From Escherichia phage ph0011, in sequence record OP557969.1: a DNA stretch of 64,000 nucleotides, one strand, 5' to 3'. Of this stretch, positions 46,289 to 53,362 are shown piece after piece. Both the position numbers and the translations under genes were made by a program. The number at the start of each line of letters is the position of its first letter. Position 1 is the first letter of the stretch. The notes beneath the pieces are model-generated. The model had not been told where the DNA came from, did not search any database, and saw nothing but the letters and a program-made list of their open reading frames with translations.

Positions 46289-46855
46289 ATGGTCAAATCA
46301 TTACTACCACCACCAAAACGACATAAAATTAAAGAAATGAAAGAACAACGTACATTAAAGATGTACAACAATTTAGTTAATTTACTTTGCAAAAGTCCAT
46401 CACTCAAAGAAATATTCACCACAGATGATGATCGTAATGCACTTATTGAGATGAAGTATATGCTCAGTAAAATGTCCTTTTACAAATTTGTCAAAGAATA
46501 CTCAACTGAACCATTCAGTCCTCGTTGGCGAGTCAAACCAAGAGAGTATTTTTTCGGTGGTTCATATACTGATATCATTCAAGATACGGTGATAGGCGTA
46601 GAGTTCGAGATTGATTATGAGCCTAATGGTGTGGAAAACTGGCAGATTGACAAACATTTACCAAGTGAAGATGAAATTTATGTTTATGCAAGAAAACAGT
46701 CAACTTTCAGTTCAAAAATTGCTCTTAATAATTTAGATTCATTTATTATTTTCTATACATTTGTCGGTGTAGATAAAATGGCAACTAAACTCAATGAATT
46801 ATCATTGCAACAAAAACAGATTAATGCATACAAAGACATTACAGATTTATACTAA
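46289..46855 (+). CDS. member 1 of tandem ~170-190-aa paralogue trio
   Basis: shared pattern LKEIFTTDDDRNALIEMKYMLSK with next two genes. Confidence 0.6.
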   Translation: MVKSLLPPPKRHKIKEMKEQRTLKMYNNLVNLLCKSPSLKEIFTTDDDRNALIEMKYMLSKMSFYKFVKEYSTEPFSPRWRVKPREYFFGGSYTDIIQDTVIGVEFEIDYEPNGVENWQIDKHLPSEDEIYVYARKQSTFSSKIALNNLDSFIIFYTFVGVDKMATKLNELSLQQKQINAYKDITDLY

Positions 46856-46861
46856 TGAGGA

Positions 46862-47383
46862 TTGGATATGTTTTTTGGACAGTTTAAAAAACCTGACAGT
46901 ACTTTAATTTGGCATGAAATCATCTTTAAAATTATATCTAAAAGCTACTCACTAAAAGATATTATCAAAACAGATCATGATCGACGTGTTCTGTTAGAAG
47001 CAAAATATAAATTGAGCAAACACCCGTTACTTTCTTTAATCATTGATTACGTTAATGATTATGAATCCAGTCGTTGGAAGTGGGAAGACGGAGGTTTATT
47101 TCGTGGAAAAACATTCTACGGTGCAGAACGATATGTATTCAGTGATACAGCAAATGGTGTTAAGTTTGCTATTAGAAACTTTAACTCCAAAGAAAATGAT
47201 TATCTTGAAAGTGGAGTTAAGGTGTATATAGATAATAATAACAATGTACTTACATATGACGAATCACTAATTATGTTACAAATAATGCGTGGAGTTGAAA
47301 GTGTAAGACACAATCTTACTAAGTTGAAAATCCAGCAAAATGATATACATAATAGACAGAAAATTAAGGGTTTATATAAATGA
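46862..47383 (+). CDS. member 2 of tandem paralogue trio
   Basis: LKDIIKTDHDRRVLLEAKYKLSK. Confidence 0.6.
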   Translation: MDMFFGQFKKPDSTLIWHEIIFKIISKSYSLKDIIKTDHDRRVLLEAKYKLSKHPLLSLIIDYVNDYESSRWKWEDGGLFRGKTFYGAERYVFSDTANGVKFAIRNFNSKENDYLESGVKVYIDNNNNVLTYDESLIMLQIMRGVESVRHNLTKLKIQQNDIHNRQKIKGLYK

Positions 47384-47889
47384 TTTCATTTTTCAAAAAG
47401 AAAGAAAAAGTTGATGAAACTGGATTAGAATCGTTTCTATGGACTCTTATCATTAAAAAAAGTCCATTAATGAAAGAATATGCTATCAATGATGCTAATA
47501 GAAAAACTATCATTGAATACAAATACGAATTATCAAAATGTGATCCAATAGTTTATCACTTTGCGAAGTACTGTTCTAAAAATTTATCGGATATCACGAT
47601 TGAACACGAGTCAGTACCAATGAGTTTTCCTTATGGTGATTGGGTAAATACTTTTGATATTTTCGATGGGTCTAATGGATTCCGTTTCTTTTACTCGTCA
47701 AATAAAGCAAATGTTCGTATTAAAACTGAGATAGGTTGGGCACAGCATAGCACAAATAAAGAAGATTATAATTTACTAGCTGACGTATACCGAAGTGTGA
47801 AGAATTCAAAGGATATTGATGAAAGAATTAAAAAGCAAAATCGTATTTCTTTATCACTTGAAACATACAAGTCAAAGTATGGTGGTTAA
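47380..47889 (+). CDS. member 3 of tandem paralogue trio
   Basis: MKEYAINDANRKTIIEYKYELSK. Confidence 0.6.
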   Translation: MISFFKKKEKVDETGLESFLWTLIIKKSPLMKEYAINDANRKTIIEYKYELSKCDPIVYHFAKYCSKNLSDITIEHESVPMSFPYGDWVNTFDIFDGSNGFRFFYSSNKANVRIKTEIGWAQHSTNKEDYNLLADVYRSVKNSKDIDERIKKQNRISLSLETYKSKYGG

Positions 47890-47891
47890 CT

Positions 47892-48293
47892 ATGACTACA
47901 GTTGATGATATCTATAGTACTATACGCAATATGAGCACAGATAGAAAAGTATTTGGTGATAAAGAAAAATCTAAGTGTTATGGTATTGATTCTTTTGATA
48001 TAATTTCGTATGAGTACAATACGAATGGAAATAGTTCACTGAATATTGTCTGCCCTCGTGACCCAGAAAATAATTTTATGTATGTTGAAATTAATAATGA
48101 TGGAATGTTTTTTACAAAAGTTTTTAAAGGTGGAATTAATTACGAAACAATTGAATGTATGAATGAAGAAACTTTCTTTCAAGAAGATACAATTATCAAT
48201 TTAGGTTTTAGTTTTGATGATTATAAAACATTAGAACATGACTTTAATCGTTATTATAACGGTTTCTTAAAGGAGTTAACAATTTATCTATGA
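47892..48293 (+). CDS. hypothetical protein
   Basis: ORF track. Confidence 0.5.
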   Translation: MTTVDDIYSTIRNMSTDRKVFGDKEKSKCYGIDSFDIISYEYNTNGNSSLNIVCPRDPENNFMYVEINNDGMFFTKVFKGGINYETIECMNEETFFQEDTIINLGFSFDDYKTLEHDFNRYYNGFLKELTIYL

Positions 48294-49522
48294 ATAACCA
48301 ATATGTTGAACAAACAATAGTGAAACACTTGGCTGGGTCACAAGCCTACGGAACCAGTACACCTGAAAGTGATACTGATTATCGTGGTATTTTTCTTGCT
48401 AATAAAGAATTTATTCTTACGCCATTCTATAAGGTTAAAGAAGTAGCTGATAAAAATGAAGAAGATACCAAATTCTATGAGTTAAATCAGTATTTAAAAT
48501 TATACACTGATGCTAACCCTAATATTCTGGAATCACTATGGGTTGAACCAGAACACATTGTAGAAAGTACTGAGATTTATGACTATCTTCGTTCATTTAA
48601 CCAAAAACTTCTTAGTTCCAAGATTGCATTTTCATACACTGGATATGCATATAATCAAATTAAACGTATGACAAATCACCACGGTTGGATGGATAAAGAG
48701 CGTATTGCTGAAAAACGTTTAAATGAGATTTTAGAAGAACACCCAGTCGATGAGGTTCTTGTGTGGATGTATGATTCATTCCCACAATATCTTGTTGACC
48801 GTTTAGATACATCCAAATTACATCCATTTAATGCTAAAAAGATTGATTTTGAAAAATACATGCGTGATACGTCATTGCAGTTAGTTTCGAAAAATCCATT
48901 AAAGCAATATCATTTTGTAAGATTAGTGCATAACTACACTACTGATAAAATTCTAGATCGTGATTTCAATTTATTGAATTTTAACAATGGGTATGAACTA
49001 ATTCATTACGGAGAAAACATTTTTGCGATTATTAAAAATCCAAATGAAAGTACAATCAACGGTGATGGTTCATTGCGACATTTTTCAAAAGAGCGTAGTA
49101 CTGAAGAGTTGAAAACCAAACCAGAACTAATTGTCAAATTTAACGAAAAAGAATATCAGGAAAATAGTGAGAATAGAAAAAGTTATCATAAATGGAAAGA
49201 AAATCGTAATGCCAAACGTGCTATTTTAGAATCACTACACGGCTATGATTGCAAAAGTGCAATGCATACCATTAGACTATTGAATAGTGCAGAAGATGCA
49301 TTACAAAGTGGGATTATTCAAGTTAAACGCCCAGATGCACAGATGTTGATGGATATTCGTAATGGTAAATGGAAGTATGAAGAAGTTTTAGAATATTTCG
49401 ATGATAAAGTAAAATATATCCGTGATGTTCTATATAAGAAATCAGAACTTCCAAAAAAACCAGATATTAAATTAGCATCGAAAATTATCATTGATATCCG
49501 AGAGATGCAATGGTATAAGTAA
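48290..49522 (+). CDS. nucleotidyltransferase-fold protein (Pol-beta-like NTase superfamily)
   Basis: N-terminal GSQAYGTSTPESDTDYRGIF matches the G[GS]x(9-13)Dh[DE] NTase signature. Confidence 0.6.
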   Translation: MNNQYVEQTIVKHLAGSQAYGTSTPESDTDYRGIFLANKEFILTPFYKVKEVADKNEEDTKFYELNQYLKLYTDANPNILESLWVEPEHIVESTEIYDYLRSFNQKLLSSKIAFSYTGYAYNQIKRMTNHHGWMDKERIAEKRLNEILEEHPVDEVLVWMYDSFPQYLVDRLDTSKLHPFNAKKIDFEKYMRDTSLQLVSKNPLKQYHFVRLVHNYTTDKILDRDFNLLNFNNGYELIHYGENIFAIIKNPNESTINGDGSLRHFSKERSTEELKTKPELIVKFNEKEYQENSENRKSYHKWKENRNAKRAILESLHGYDCKSAMHTIRLLNSAEDALQSGIIQVKRPDAQMLMDIRNGKWKYEEVLEYFDDKVKYIRDVLYKKSELPKKPDIKLASKIIIDIREMQWYK

Positions 49523-49616
49523 TATATGGGTGTAATAGTTATAAAAAATTCCATTACACACCAAATCACTTCAGTGATTTATATCTTGACATTGAAAAAA
49601 ATAATTATGTATAGTT

Positions 49617-49647
49617 AGAGAACTTCATATGGAGTTCTCTTTTTTTA
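49617..49647 (+). terminator. rho-independent terminator
   Basis: 8-bp stem agagaact/agttctct followed by TTTTTTT. Confidence 0.65.
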
Positions 49648-49660
49648 TAAGGGTGATTAA

Positions 49661-50062
49661 ATGTTAAATGAACGTATTAAAAATGCACTATATGTATTGA
49701 ACCAAGAAGTTAATTCTATTAATAAAAGTACTGAGCGATATAAAGTATTACATGAAATTAGACAAGAATTGGAATCTATTAATAAGGGAAAATGGGTTCT
49801 TGAACGCGAACGAACTATTGTTGAAAAAGCAATTGCAAAATTCATCTCTGAACGTTATGGTAAAATTTCAGAGGAAGATGTACTAATGAACTTACATCTT
49901 TCACAAACGGAAGTGATGGAGAAATTTCATTTTGATTCATTAGACTGGTTGGAAATGATCATGGAATTGGAAGAAGAATTCAATGTAGAAGTAGATTTAT
50001 ATTATGAAAAACAAGAAACCAAACTATATGAACTAGCAGAACATATTAAACTAATGATGTAA
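49661..50062 (+). CDS. protein with acyl-carrier-protein-like C-terminal domain
   Basis: FDSLDWLEMIMELEEEFNVEV resembles ACP helix-II motif (DSLDTVELVMALEEEF) including the conserved Ser. Confidence 0.5.
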   Translation: MLNERIKNALYVLNQEVNSINKSTERYKVLHEIRQELESINKGKWVLERERTIVEKAIAKFISERYGKISEEDVLMNLHLSQTEVMEKFHFDSLDWLEMIMELEEEFNVEVDLYYEKQETKLYELAEHIKLMM

Positions 50063-50115
50063 ACATATACCATTATATACTCTAAATAATATCATCAACT
50101 ACAGGAGATGATATT

Positions 50116-50490
50116 ATGAGTGTACTAGAAATTATTGTTTCAAAAATTTTAATTCCATATTGGAAGCCGATTTCTTTTGCGTTATTACTCGGTGGTGCGG
50201 CATTATCAGGTTGGAAAGCTAATACTTATTATACTGGTTATCAGCAAAGTATCGAGCAACAAATAGCCAAACAGGTTGATGTCGCACTTGATAAAATGCA
50301 ACAGGAAAATGCAAAAAATTACATTGAAACAAAAAAAATCATGGAAGATAATGCTAAAGTTATTGAAACGAAAGTTCCTTATATAGTAGAACGCAAAGTT
50401 TATAAGAATGTGTGTTTAGATGAAGATGGCGTGAAAATTCTAAATGATCTAAAACAAAATTCACAAGCAATGAGGAATAAGTTAAAATGA
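50116..50490 (+). CDS. i-spanin-like protein (N-terminal TM plus periplasmic coiled coil)
   Basis: TM segment ISFALLLGGAALSGW; overlaps downstream lipoprotein gene. Confidence 0.55.
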   Translation: MSVLEIIVSKILIPYWKPISFALLLGGAALSGWKANTYYTGYQQSIEQQIAKQVDVALDKMQQENAKNYIETKKIMEDNAKVIETKVPYIVERKVYKNVCLDEDGVKILNDLKQNSQAMRNKLK

Positions 50491-50795
50491 AAAAAATATT
50501 AGTCCCAATGATTTCTTTTTTAATTATAAGTGGTTGTGCTGAACAAGCAAAACTACAATCACCTGCACCTATTAAACAAGAAATTCTATTAGAAAGATGT
50601 GATGATGATACACCTCTGCCACAAAAAATCATGATTGACAATAATGGTTTTAAAGGTTATGATGGTGCAGAAATTCTTAAAGTACTTACTCGTTGGGATG
50701 CAATCTATAATGAGTGTGCTTTAAAACATGATGCCTTGATTAAAACTATTCGCGATTTACAAGGCAAAGATATTAAAATTAATATCAAGGAATAA
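50487..50795 (+). CDS. o-spanin-like outer-membrane lipoprotein
   Basis: signal peptide with lipobox IISGC; start overlaps i-spanin stop (ATGA). Confidence 0.55.
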   Translation: MKKILVPMISFLIISGCAEQAKLQSPAPIKQEILLERCDDDTPLPQKIMIDNNGFKGYDGAEILKVLTRWDAIYNECALKHDALIKTIRDLQGKDIKINIKE

Positions 50796-51825: not shown

Positions 51826-52224
51826 ATGCTTAAAGAATTAGATTTTTCAAACTTAGAAATTATCAGTGCTGTTAAAAACATCTCCGACATGGGAGATGAG
51901 AAATCAGTGCTTGTTACTATTACTTTTGTAAAAGAAGAAGATAGTTATAGTCATTTGACTGGTATTGAAGAACTAATTCATAAAACCAATCTTGAAAATA
52001 ATGGTAAACTCATCAAACTTCAGGCATCCTATATCCAAAAAACATCAAATTTTATAGACATAAATAATATAGTCAAGGTGGTATATAATCATCCTGACCA
52101 CAAATATAGGAATACATCAAGAAATGAAAATATTGCGAAAGATACTAACATCATAGAAGATGTTGACTTTATCAATACTATTTTTGATCGTTGCTCTATT
52201 GATTTGAAAAAAGTATACATGTAA
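51826..52224 (+). CDS. hypothetical protein
   Basis: ORF track. Confidence 0.5.
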   Translation: MLKELDFSNLEIISAVKNISDMGDEKSVLVTITFVKEEDSYSHLTGIEELIHKTNLENNGKLIKLQASYIQKTSNFIDINNIVKVVYNHPDHKYRNTSRNENIAKDTNIIEDVDFINTIFDRCSIDLKKVYM

Positions 52225-52919: not shown

Positions 52920-53348
52920 ATGAGTAACACAACGAAAATATATAATAAATCTGAATTAACACAATTGTTATTCAAAGAATATTTTGAGTTTCAGATAAAA
53001 GACGAACATCAATTACCACAACAATACTTGAAAAGAATTAAAGATACGTCAGTAATTACTAAAGAAACTAATTTTTATAATAGTATTTTGGATTTCGTTA
53101 AATCAGTTCATACGACAAGACCTATTGTAGTTTTGTTTTTTGATAAATCTATCCCTTTAGTAGTTCCCGAAAATGTATTTTTTATCTCAGAAACTGATTT
53201 AAATAACCAAAGTACTATAAGTAGATTAAGAAATTGCTTACTTGTAGTATGTGATTCTTATTTGTATAATAACAGAATACTATGGGATAGAAGCAAACGC
53301 AATGCAATTTCGGAAATGAACCCTGAACTTACATTTATTATTAACTAA
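52920..53348 (+). CDS. hypothetical protein
   Basis: ORF track; no canonical SD. Confidence 0.5.
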   Translation: MSNTTKIYNKSELTQLLFKEYFEFQIKDEHQLPQQYLKRIKDTSVITKETNFYNSILDFVKSVHTTRPIVVLFFDKSIPLVVPENVFFISETDLNNQSTISRLRNCLLVVCDSYLYNNRILWDRSKRNAISEMNPELTFIIN

Positions 53349-53354
53349 ATACCA

Positions 53355-53362
53355 TATAAATA
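53355..53362 (+). promoter_or_regulatory. T4-type late promoter motif TATAAATA
   Basis: exact octamer 18 nt upstream of ATG 53381. Confidence 0.45.

What the first reader, a model, noticed from the sequence alone, without database searches (positions are those of the whole stretch)
49661..50062. Protein with acyl-carrier-protein-like motif
The C-terminal half contains FDSLDWLEMIMELEEEF, closely resembling the phosphopantetheine attachment helix of ACP (DSL Ser, acidic helix II). The N-terminal ~60 aa look coiled-coil. No acyltransferase or synthase partner is evident nearby.
Basis: inference. Interest (0 to 1): 0.45.

Follow-up and report, generated by a model that had tools for sequence, protein, structure and literature searches.

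The report
Jumbo-phage ACP-fold protein, serine dispensable
This E. coli jumbo-phage gene does encode a protein with an acyl-carrier-protein fold, but its closest relatives have replaced the cofactor-attachment serine with almost any residue while keeping a nearby tryptophan, so it most likely works as a protein-binding module and not as a carrier of acyl groups.

Summary
The ORF (49661-50062, +, 133 aa) and its FDSLDWLEMIMELEEEF motif are real. The window is an Asteriusvirus-like E. coli jumbo phage. The C-terminal ~80 residues are homologous to ACP by sequence (Pfam PP-binding exactly at threshold; E. coli ACP E~3e-4) and by predicted fold (pLDDT 90; all top PDB matches are ACPs). Residues 4-41 form a helical hairpin specific to a small family found in RaK2-like jumbo phages and related metagenomic contigs.

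The fold is present, but the serine is not conserved. In the window's subgroup (16 sequences) that position is S/W/T/D/N/R/E/K, while Trp96, three residues later, is invariant. In a sister subgroup (9 sequences) Ser is invariant and position 96 varies. A Trp-bearing orthologue still models as an ACP fold.

No phosphopantetheinyl transferase or acyl-ACP enzyme was found nearby, nor among the named products of a 378-kb relative (most genes there are unnamed). The gene is under purifying selection and has its own conserved sigma70-like promoter. It sits beside the spanin genes but belongs to a separate transcription unit.

Best reading: a cofactor-independent pseudo-ACP acting through its conserved acidic helix II, possibly as a decoy for host ACP-dependent enzymes. 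Its function has not been tested.

The parts
49586..49615 (+). sigma70-like promoter (TTGACA-18 nt-TATAGT, 11/12 match) upstream of the gene
   Evidence: Both hexamers are conserved in 121Q and Turkey5 (12/12 in each), although the Turkey5 protein is only 37% identical. Function is inferred, not measured.
49617..49647 (+). 10-bp hairpin plus T-run, directly after the -10 hexamer: terminator of upstream transcription. The predicted start site of the promoter above falls inside its 5' arm.
   Evidence: RNA fold dG -12.9 kcal/mol, z -3.7, 0 of 200 shuffles as stable. Conserved in 121Q and Turkey5. The same promoter-hairpin-gene geometry recurs at 60526-60600.
49650..49656 (+). Shine-Dalgarno-like AGGGTGA, 4 nt before the ATG
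   Evidence: Read from the sequence.
49661..50062 (+). CDS, 133 aa: two-domain ACP-fold protein (PHROG 18343)
   Evidence: dN/dS 0.18-0.40 against orthologues, so it is a functional gene.
49670..49783 (+). N-terminal helical hairpin (residues 4-41) with the conserved S23-x-x-R26-Y27 motif at the start of helix 2. It is specific to this phage family.
   Evidence: AF2 secondary structure. Conservation. It has no match in PDB or Pfam. Its orientation relative to the ACP domain is not fixed: pTM 0.64, and family members superpose at 15-18 A rmsd over full length.
49817..50056 (+). ACP-fold domain (residues 53-132): helix I 53-66, inserted short helices 71-76 and 82-89, helix II 93-107, helix III 113-116, helix IV 122-132
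49934..49981 (+). D92-S93-L94-D95-W96 followed by acidic helix II: the most conserved segment of the family. S93 (49937-49939) is variable among orthologues. W96 (49946-49948) is invariant in the window's subgroup.
50082..50088 (+). CTAAATA, a T4-late-promoter-like motif 28 nt before the i-spanin start. It marks the beginning of a separate, probably late, transcription unit.
   Evidence: A related late motif, ATAAATA, was reported for phage CBB in PMC5259590.
50116..50490 (+). Context, not part of the feature: i-spanin (N-terminal TM segment, Rz-like, phrog_1152)
50487..50795 (+). Context, not part of the feature: o-spanin lipoprotein (lipobox ISGC), overlapping the i-spanin gene by 4 nt
48290..49522 (+). 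Context: RlaP-family nucleotidyltransferase, the usual first gene of the operon that ends with the ACP-like gene in related phages

Best explanation
The gene encodes a cytoplasmic, acidic (pI ~4.9), two-domain protein: a family-specific N-terminal helical hairpin tethered to a domain with the acyl-carrier-protein fold. In the lineage this window belongs to (Asteriusvirus, Alcyoneusvirus and metagenomic relatives), the family no longer depends on the 4'-phosphopantetheine cofactor. I propose it acts as a protein-protein interaction module (a 'pseudo-ACP'). It would dock through the conserved acidic recognition helix II (D92, D95, E98, M101, E104, F107, E110), with the invariant Trp96 taking over part of the role of the lost prosthetic arm or stabilising the cofactor-free fold. 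The most likely specific version is an ACP mimic made from its own sigma70-type promoter that occupies host ACP-client enzymes or ACP-binding proteins. This would resemble apo-ACP, which inhibits glycerol-3-phosphate acyltransferase and stops E. coli growth. SHOWN: the ORF, the ACP fold, non-conservation of Ser, invariance of Trp96, conservation concentrated on helix II, purifying selection, and no named carrier-pathway enzyme in a relative. INFERRED: cofactor independence of the window's own copy, early expression, the binding mode, and the identity of any target.
For: Fold and homology. Reciprocal rate shift: the window's subgroup (n=16) has position 93 = S5/W3/T2/D2/N/R/E/K and W96 in 16/16; the sister subgroup (n=9) has S93 in 9/9 and seven residue types at position 96. 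Even 89%-identical sequences differ at 93 (N versus R). A Trp93 orthologue still models as an ACP fold: pLDDT 87.5, PDB top hits all ACPs, TM up to 0.78. Conservation is concentrated on helix II (mean 1.29 bits versus 1.8-2.75 elsewhere), on the residues that align with D35, D38, E41, M44, E47 and F50 of E. coli ACP. The gene is under purifying selection (dN/dS 0.18-0.40) yet is the fastest-evolving of six adjacent genes: dN is 0.21 against 121Q, versus 0.017-0.085 for the neighbours. No AcpS homologue was found in any RaK2-like phage. No PPTase, Fab, Lpx or Pls enzyme and no acyl-ACP synthetase is named in 350 kb of vB_Ec-M-J or among the ten nearest window genes. It has its own conserved sigma70-like promoter. 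Precedents: Plasmodium mACP has Ser replaced by Phe, carries no Ppant and works as a binding subunit, with the aromatic residue contributing to the interface (PMC8547962). Apo-ACP inhibits glycerol-3-phosphate acyltransferase and growth (review PMC3896788). A preprint predicts a phage ACP-host FabZ contact.
Against: The window's own copy, and its closest relatives (UE-S1, P0001-P0004, P0008), do retain Ser93 together with every residue expected for AcpS recognition, so modification in vivo cannot be excluded. The sister subgroup keeps Ser strictly, which suggests the ancestral function did use the cofactor. No binding partner has been identified, and no interface prediction could be run. The role of the N-terminal hairpin is unexplained. 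Helix II conservation could partly reflect fold stability and not an interface. The promoter is a consensus match with cross-phage conservation, not a measured transcription start. In several relatives the gene has no promoter of its own and sits at the end of an operon. Rapid evolution fits poorly with targeting highly conserved host enzymes.
Confidence: 0.55

Rival explanations
1. It is a genuine holo-carrier in this particular phage. Host AcpS phosphopantetheinylates Ser93, and the protein shuttles an acyl or other thioester-bound group for a phage- or host-encoded enzyme.
For: Ser93 sits in a canonical D-S-L-D context, and D92, L94, D95, E98 and M101 match the ACP residues at the same positions. 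All six close relatives in the window's sub-clade keep Ser. The sister subgroup keeps Ser in 9/9. Dedicated ACPs that acylate one specific protein are known, for example IacP/SipB (PMC5279801).
Against: Orthologues in the same genomic slot of other E. coli Asteriusviruses have Trp, Asn or Arg at this position. No acyltransferase, ligase, synthase or PPTase was found nearby or among the named products of a relative's genome. The protein scores 28-29 bits against ACP equivalog cut-offs of 66-106.
Confidence: 0.17
2. It is a lysis-module component functionally tied to the spanins next to it, for example by supplying acyl groups for the o-spanin lipoprotein or by regulating lysis timing from the cytoplasm.
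For: The order ACP-like gene, i-spanin, o-spanin is kept in all 15 loci with flanking sequence, across Asterius-, Alcyoneus-, Mimas-, Eneladusvirus, Munch-like phages and two metagenomic contigs, even where the upstream genes differ. PMC7760394 noted this proximity.
Against: In seven lineages a strong rho-independent terminator and a TAAATA late-type motif separate the two, and the ACP-like gene abuts or overlaps the stop of the gene upstream of it. The two are therefore different transcription units. By established knowledge of Lgt and Lnt, bacterial lipoprotein acylation uses phospholipid donors, not acyl-ACP. The protein has no signal peptide or TM segment, and Ser is dispensable. These phages are strongly collinear overall, so adjacency alone is weak evidence.
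Confidence: 0.08
3. It is an adaptor subunit of a phage-encoded complex, or it self-associates: the ACP domain binds a phage partner or its own or another copy's N-terminal hairpin, as mitochondrial ACP binds LYR-motif helical proteins. There would be no host target.
For: The second conserved patch is the S-x-x-R-Y motif of the hairpin. The S93/W96 rate shift resembles the co-adaptation of Plasmodium mACP (Ser to Phe) with Isd11. The gene ends a conserved operon headed by the RlaP nucleotidyltransferase.
Against: AF2 does not place the hairpin confidently against the ACP domain (pTM 0.63-0.64; 15-18 A rmsd between family models). The operon partners vary: the conserved 187-aa oxygenase-like neighbour of RaK2, CBB and BF is absent from the window and from 350 kb of vB_Ec-M-J.
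Confidence: 0.15
4. It is a decaying remnant of a captured ACP gene with no current function.
For: The key catalytic-site residue has been lost, and the gene evolves faster than its neighbours.
Against: dN/dS is 0.18-0.40. The ORF is intact in five phage lineages. D92, D95 and W96 are invariant, helix II is conserved, and the promoter is conserved.
Confidence: 0.05

Closest known systems
Bacterial type II FAS acyl carrier protein AcpP (Pfam PF00550; TIGR00517)
   Same: Same four-helix fold. D-S-L-D at the N-terminus of an acidic helix II, with equivalents of D35, D38, E41, M44, E47 and F50 conserved.
   Different: 133 aa against ~78 aa. It has an extra N-terminal helical hairpin and a ~6-residue insertion before helix II. 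It scores 28-29 bits against cut-offs of 66-106. Ser is not conserved among orthologues. There is no fab gene context.
Plasmodium falciparum mitochondrial ACP (mACP), PMC8547962
   Same: An ACP-fold protein that has lost the Ppant serine, keeps the acidic helix, uses an aromatic residue at the former cofactor site, and acts as a binding subunit, not a carrier.
   Different: There the aromatic residue (Phe113) sits at the Ser position itself and the partner (Isd11) is known. Here the invariant aromatic residue is three residues downstream (W96), the Ser position is free to vary, the partner is unknown, and the window's own copy still has Ser.
'Acyl carrier protein' of Mimasvirus, Eneladusvirus and Munch-like jumbo phages (CBB_163, GAP32_159, Serratia BF_0158, Yen9-03 g156), discussed in PMC7760394
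   Same: Same two-domain architecture, same position immediately upstream of the spanin pair, and same PHROG-level family.
   Different: That subgroup keeps Ser in 9/9 and has no conserved Trp at position 96. It is only 24-30% identical to the window protein. The Eneladusvirus protein was detected by LC-MS/MS in virion preparations, whereas the phAPEC6 orthologue gp313c is not in that phage's virion proteome table.
Short single-domain phage ACPs (e.g. Achromobacter phage Motura gp339, Salmonella phage ViI ACP; PHROGs 5934 and 4154)
   Same: ACP fold and a DSLD motif. They are annotated as auxiliary metabolic or host-takeover genes.
   Different: They lack the N-terminal hairpin, have a different genomic context and retain Ser.
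Apo-ACP as an inhibitor in E. coli (review PMC3896788)
   Same: Cofactor-free ACP acts by binding an ACP-client enzyme (glycerol-3-phosphate acyltransferase) and stops growth. This is the mechanistic model for a decoy role.
   Different: That is an overexpression artefact of the host's own protein. No inhibition has been shown for the phage protein.

Membership tests
ACP / PP-binding superfamily (fold and homology level) | Four-helix ACP fold | tested here: met
   AF2 pLDDT 90.3. All 50 top PDB Foldseek hits are ACPs, prob 1.00, TM 0.67-0.78 over ~80 columns.
ACP / PP-binding superfamily (fold and homology level) | Significant profile match to PF00550 | tested here: inconclusive
   20.8 bits, exactly the gathering cut-off, and only residues 91-113. 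Supported by phmmer to E. coli ACP at E~3e-4 and PHROG ACP families at 8.7e-8.
ACP / PP-binding superfamily (fold and homology level) | D-S-L motif with Ser at the N-terminus of helix II | tested here: met
   D92-S93-L94 in the window protein aligns with D35-S36-L37 of E. coli ACP.
Functional carrier protein (holo-ACP/PCP) | Attachment Ser conserved among orthologues | tested here: not met
   S5/W3/T2/D2/N/R/E/K in the window's subgroup of 16, the 8th most variable of 133 positions.
Functional carrier protein (holo-ACP/PCP) | 4'-phosphopantetheinylation of the Ser | not testable with these tools
   Needs mass spectrometry. The AcpS-recognition residues are present in the window copy.
Functional carrier protein (holo-ACP/PCP) | Cognate PPTase and/or acyl-loading or acyl-using enzyme encoded with it | tested here: not met
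   None among the ten neighbours. None named in 350 kb of vB_Ec-M-J, where most genes are 'hypothetical'. The host AcpS could still act.
AcpP equivalog (TIGR00517 / NF002148-51) | Score above the curated cut-off | tested here: not met
   28-29 bits against cut-offs of 66-106. The RaK2 orthologue has no hit at all.
DltC / D-alanyl carrier protein (the label used in phage fEgEco12) | Score above the NF003464 cut-off | tested here: not met
   16.9 bits against a cut-off of 68.
PHROG 18343: two-domain ACP-like protein of RaK2-like jumbo phages | Full-length profile match | tested here: met
   E=6.5e-40, residues 2-132 on profile positions 1-137 of 138. An exhaustive HMMER search of 1.84 billion representatives finds only about 10 full-length clusters.
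PHROG 18343: two-domain ACP-like protein of RaK2-like jumbo phages | Position immediately upstream of the i-spanin/o-spanin pair | tested here: met
   15 of 15 loci with flanks. TM segment and lipobox checked in 9 of them.
Cofactor-independent ACP (Plasmodium mACP type) | Loss of the Ppant Ser with the fold and acidic helix II retained | tested here: inconclusive
   Met for the orthologous group, including a Trp93 orthologue that models as an ACP fold. The window's own copy still has Ser93.
Cofactor-independent ACP (Plasmodium mACP type) | Stable binding to a defined partner (LYR-type or other) | not testable with these tools
   No multimer prediction or interaction data were available.

The most novel reading that the evidence does not exclude
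The Asteriusvirus/Alcyoneusvirus branch of this family is a new class of phage host-takeover effector. It would be an early-expressed pseudo-ACP that has exchanged the phosphopantetheine arm for an invariant tryptophan and jams host ACP-dependent enzymes of membrane-lipid or lipid A synthesis (PlsB, LpxA/D, FabZ), or other ACP-binding proteins such as SpoT, MukB or IscS. It would do so by mimicking the recognition helix of host ACP.
Probability: 0.2. Interest if true: 0.7.

Novelty: new variant of a known kind. Interest (0 to 1): 0.42.

Why it matters
Genome pipelines routinely label phage 'acyl carrier proteins' as auxiliary metabolic genes, but I found no experimental work on any of them. 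For this family the label is misleading in one large branch. The fold and recognition helix are kept, while the one residue that makes a carrier a carrier is free to vary. This is the same evolutionary route taken by the malaria parasite's mitochondrial ACP. If the protein turns out to be a decoy for host ACP clients, it would be a compact, natural inhibitor scaffold aimed at an essential and druggable hub of bacterial lipid metabolism. The naturally occurring S, W, N, R, T, D, E and K alleles would then form a ready-made mutational series. If it does not, the practical outcome is a corrected annotation.

Tried and rejected
(1) The search for related loci with the family alignment on IMG/VR failed because the alignment has no stretch conserved enough. 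I used tblastn on phage records and exact-protein look-ups instead.

(2) A 432-aa BFVD entry, 61% identical over the ACP-like part, looked like an informative fusion. It is a frameshift artefact in the UNVERIFIED record of phage CMSTMSU, where the nucleotidyltransferase and i-spanin genes are also fragmented.

(3) Co-transcription with the spanins is rejected. Terminators and late-type motifs lie between the two in seven lineages.

(4) The highly conserved 187-aa HxD...H...R protein just upstream in RaK2, CBB, BF and Munch was a candidate universal partner. It has no Pfam hit and is absent from the window and from 350 kb of vB_Ec-M-J.

(5) A virion-protein role is not supported. The phAPEC6 orthologue gp313c is not in the 62-protein virion table, although an Eneladusvirus relative was detected by LC-MS/MS.

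(6) A phage-encoded AcpS was not found by tblastn. Sfp-type enzymes were not searched separately.

(7) The weak Pfam hits to UBR4 and PSMD12 for the N-terminal region are far below threshold and I treat them as noise.

(8) The papers on UE-S1 and fEgEco12 do not mention the gene.

Full report
WHAT IS THERE. The window is 33.5% G+C. It is 92% identical over 4 kb to Escherichia phage UE-S1 and 78-90% identical to other ~350-kb Asteriusvirus jumbo phages such as slurp01, 121Q, PBECO4 and phAPEC6. The ORF listing gives an ATG-initiated ORF at exactly 49661-50062 on the + strand, 133 aa. The reported motif FDSLDWLEMIMELEEEF is residues 91-107.

IS IT ACP-LIKE? Yes, by several independent measures.
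- Pfam PP-binding scores 20.8 bits, exactly the gathering cut-off, but over residues 91-113 only.
- PHROG families named 'acyl carrier protein' match at 8.7e-8 and 5.5e-5. The best match (6.5e-40, full length) is PHROG 18343, which has no assigned function.
- phmmer against PDB sequences aligns residues 53-113 with E. coli ACP at E~3e-4.
- An AlphaFold2 model built on a 14-sequence family alignment has mean pLDDT 90.3. Its 50 best Foldseek matches in the PDB are all acyl carrier proteins, with prob 1.00 and target-normalised TM 0.67-0.78 over ~80 columns.

The model has a helical hairpin (4-18, 23-41), a low-confidence linker (pLDDT ~63), and then the ACP helices: I 53-66, II 93-107, III 113-116 and IV 122-132. 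Two short inserted helices lie between I and II. The pTM is only 0.64, and family members superpose over full length at 15-18 A rmsd in BFVD. The hairpin is therefore not confidently docked on the ACP domain.

The protein is not an AcpP equivalog. NCBIfam ACP models give 28-29 bits against cut-offs of 66-106, DltC gives 16.9 against 68, and the RaK2 orthologue hits nothing.

THE SERINE. The word-index search returned nine close relatives, and four of them read FDWLDW instead of FDSLDW. I extended the sample in three ways: tblastn over 50,697 phage records, an exhaustive HMMER profile search of 1.84 billion representatives that gave only 28 hits at E<=1e-3 and about ten full-length clusters, and annotated loci. 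This produced 25 full-length two-domain sequences. They fall into two groups.
- Group A: Mimasvirus CBB, GAP32 and XbC2; Kaldavass (unclassified); Eneladusvirus BF and Yen9-03; Munch; and two metagenomic clusters. It has D-S-L-D with Ser in 9/9 and seven different residues at position 96.
- Group B: the window, UE-S1, 121Q, vB_Ec-M-J, Turkey5, RaK2 and metagenomic clusters, 16 sequences in all. It has S5/W3/T2/D2/N1/R1/E1/K1 at position 93 (2.73 bits, the 8th most variable of 133 positions) and Trp96 in 16/16.

D92 and D95 are invariant in both groups. Two sequences that are 89% identical differ at position 93 (N versus R). The window's TCA (Ser) differs from the TGG (Trp) of 121Q and vB_Ec-M-J at two bases. 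A 121Q-type Trp93 protein still models as an ACP fold: pLDDT 87.5, PDB top hits all ACPs, TM up to 0.78.

The fold is present, and the Ser is not conserved.

IS THE GENE FUNCTIONAL? Pairwise dN/dS is 0.18-0.40, which indicates purifying selection. It is nevertheless the fastest-evolving of six adjacent genes. Against 121Q its dN is 0.21, compared with 0.017-0.085 for the spanins, the HNH endonuclease, orf118 and DUF7325. Conservation is concentrated in two places. The first is helix II: mean entropy 1.29 bits against 1.8-2.75 for the other segments, with D92, L94, D95, E98, M101, E104, F107 and E110 conserved. The second is an S23-x-x-R26-Y27 motif at the start of the second hairpin helix. All family members are acidic, with pI 4.2-5.0.

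PARTNERS. The ten nearest genes are three paralogous proteins of unknown function, a fourth unknown, an RlaP-family nucleotidyltransferase, an Rz-like i-spanin, an o-spanin lipoprotein, an HNH endonuclease, another unknown and a DUF7325 protein. I read the annotation of 350 kb of the 378-kb relative vB_Ec-M-J; the remainder is RCC1-like repeats and the second copy of the terminal repeat. It names no phosphopantetheinyl transferase, Fab/Lpx/Pls enzyme or acyl-ACP synthetase, only a small 'acetyltransferase' in the terminal repeat. Most genes in that record are 'hypothetical', so this is absence of annotation, not proof of absence.

CONTEXT AND TRANSCRIPTION. In all 15 loci with flanking sequence, the gene is followed directly by a ~120-aa protein and then a ~100-aa protein. 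This holds in five phage lineages and two metagenomic contigs. In the nine loci I translated, the first has an N-terminal TM segment and the second a lipobox, which makes them an i-spanin/o-spanin pair. PMC7760394 already remarked on this proximity in Eneladusvirus.

The two are not one transcription unit. In CBB, GAP32, XbC2, BF, Yen9-03, Munch and one metagenomic contig, a strong rho-independent terminator lies between them, followed by a [C/G/T]TAAATA motif. In the window only the motif remains (CTCTAAATAATA, 50080-50091). It resembles the T4 late promoter and the ATAAATA late motif reported for CBB (PMC5259590). Such motifs are depleted in the window and tend to lie 19-32 nt before ORF starts.

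Upstream, the gene abuts or overlaps the stop codon of the preceding gene in RaK2, CBB, BF and both metagenomic contigs. It is the last gene of an operon headed by the RlaP nucleotidyltransferase. In the window, 121Q and Turkey5 it has instead acquired its own TTGACA-N17/18-TATAAT-type promoter, followed at once by a hairpin and a T-run (dG -12.9 kcal/mol, z -3.7). Both elements are conserved although the Turkey5 protein is only 37% identical. The predicted start site falls inside the 5' arm of the hairpin. The element can therefore terminate incoming transcripts without terminating its own. The same geometry recurs at 60526-60600.

MECHANISM. Several things are shown: an ACP fold with a conserved recognition helix, a dispensable cofactor site, a lineage-specific invariant Trp one helical turn after that site, purifying selection, and no named carrier pathway. 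From this I infer that the group-B proteins, the window's included, act without phosphopantetheine as protein-binding modules.

Two literature precedents make this concrete. First, Plasmodium mitochondrial ACP has replaced the Ser by Phe and carries no Ppant. It is essential as a subunit that binds Isd11-Nfs1, and the Phe contributes to the interface (PMC8547962). Second, cofactor-free ACP is a stronger inhibitor of E. coli glycerol-3-phosphate acyltransferase and of growth than holo-ACP (review PMC3896788).

The version I favour is an ACP decoy made early from the sigma70-type promoter that occupies host ACP clients. A 2026 preprint computationally predicts a phage ACP-host FabZ contact. From my own recollection of ACP structures, not tested here, the residue equivalent to W96 (Thr39 of E. 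coli ACP) lies at the mouth of the acyl pocket. A Trp there could plug the pocket and stabilise the apo fold, or it could insert into a partner's pantetheine tunnel.

I give 0.55 to 'cofactor-independent binding module'. Within that, roughly a third goes to the host-decoy version.

RIVALS.
- True carrier, 0.17. The window copy and its six nearest relatives keep Ser and all AcpS-recognition residues, and group A keeps Ser strictly. It is disfavoured by the Ser-less orthologues and by the absence of any partner enzyme.
- Adaptor for a phage complex or for its own hairpin, 0.15. This is compatible with the conserved R-Y patch and the operon context.
- Functional link to the spanins, 0.08. This is weakened by the intervening terminators and by the fact (established knowledge of Lgt and Lnt) that lipoprotein acylation uses phospholipids, not acyl-ACP.
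- Decaying remnant, 0.05. This is contradicted by the dN/dS values and the invariant residues.
- Virion component. Not supported for Asteriusvirus: gp313c is absent from the phAPEC6 virion table. An Eneladusvirus relative was, however, detected by LC-MS/MS.

NOVELTY. The gene and its 'ACP' label are already in databases and in one paper. What I did not find in the literature I searched is the group-specific loss of the attachment serine coupled to gain of an invariant Trp. I rate this as a new variant of a known kind, and of moderate interest. It becomes clearly interesting only if a target is found.

Noticed in passing
window 60526-60600: A second sigma70-like promoter (TTGACA-17-TATACT) is followed immediately by a hairpin (GGGACAGAATTAATCTGTCCC) plus a T-run, with an ORF start 46 nt after the -10 hexamer. 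This is the same geometry as upstream of the ACP-like gene, which suggests a recurrent combined terminator/promoter cassette in this phage.
   Followed up: partly
window 46289-47889: Three tandem paralogous genes (188, 173 and 169 aa; PHROGs 18641 and 7868, function unknown) lie upstream of the RlaP nucleotidyltransferase. A metagenomic relative has the same triplet.
   Followed up: partly
window 40129, 50082, 53345-53362: T4-late-promoter-like motifs (TATAAATA, CTAAATA) occur only 3-4 times in 64 kb, against roughly 10-14 expected from base composition. About half lie 19-32 nt upstream of ORF starts, which is consistent with a genuine late-promoter signal that is avoided elsewhere.
   Followed up: partly
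L004 2441-3004 (RaK2_00008); L005 2412-2981 (CBB_162): A 187-aa protein immediately upstream of, and overlapping, the ACP-like gene in RaK2, CBB, BF, Munch and a metagenomic contig is 52-75% identical across genera. It has an HxD...H...R pattern reminiscent of 2OG-Fe(II) oxygenases and no Pfam hit. It is absent from the window and from 350 kb of vB_Ec-M-J. It probably explains the 'oxidoreductase' label in K64-1.
   Followed up: partly
L012 1735-2187 (GAP32_159): The GAP32 'acyl carrier protein' is annotated as 84 aa, but the ORF extends upstream to a 137-aa two-domain protein like the rest of the family. The deposited start is probably wrong.
   Followed up: yes
L024 (phage CMSTMSU MH494197); P0007; P0010: Some deposited or assembled copies have frameshifted ends or apparent fusions: a 432-aa nucleotidyltransferase-ACP 'fusion', and C-termini reading ...HIQTCCK.... 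These occur in records where neighbouring genes are also fragmented, so I take them as sequencing or assembly errors, not biology.
   Followed up: yes
window 51826-52224: A DUF7325 protein (Pfam E=2e-54) is conserved a few genes downstream of the spanins in the window and in both metagenomic contigs. Its 121Q counterpart is annotated 'structural protein'.
   Followed up: no
vB_Ec-M-J OQ718158 333206-350767 (outside the window): There is an array of at least 14 tandem ~380-aa genes annotated 'regulator of chromosome condensation' (RCC1-like) on the minus strand near the right end of the genome.
   Followed up: no
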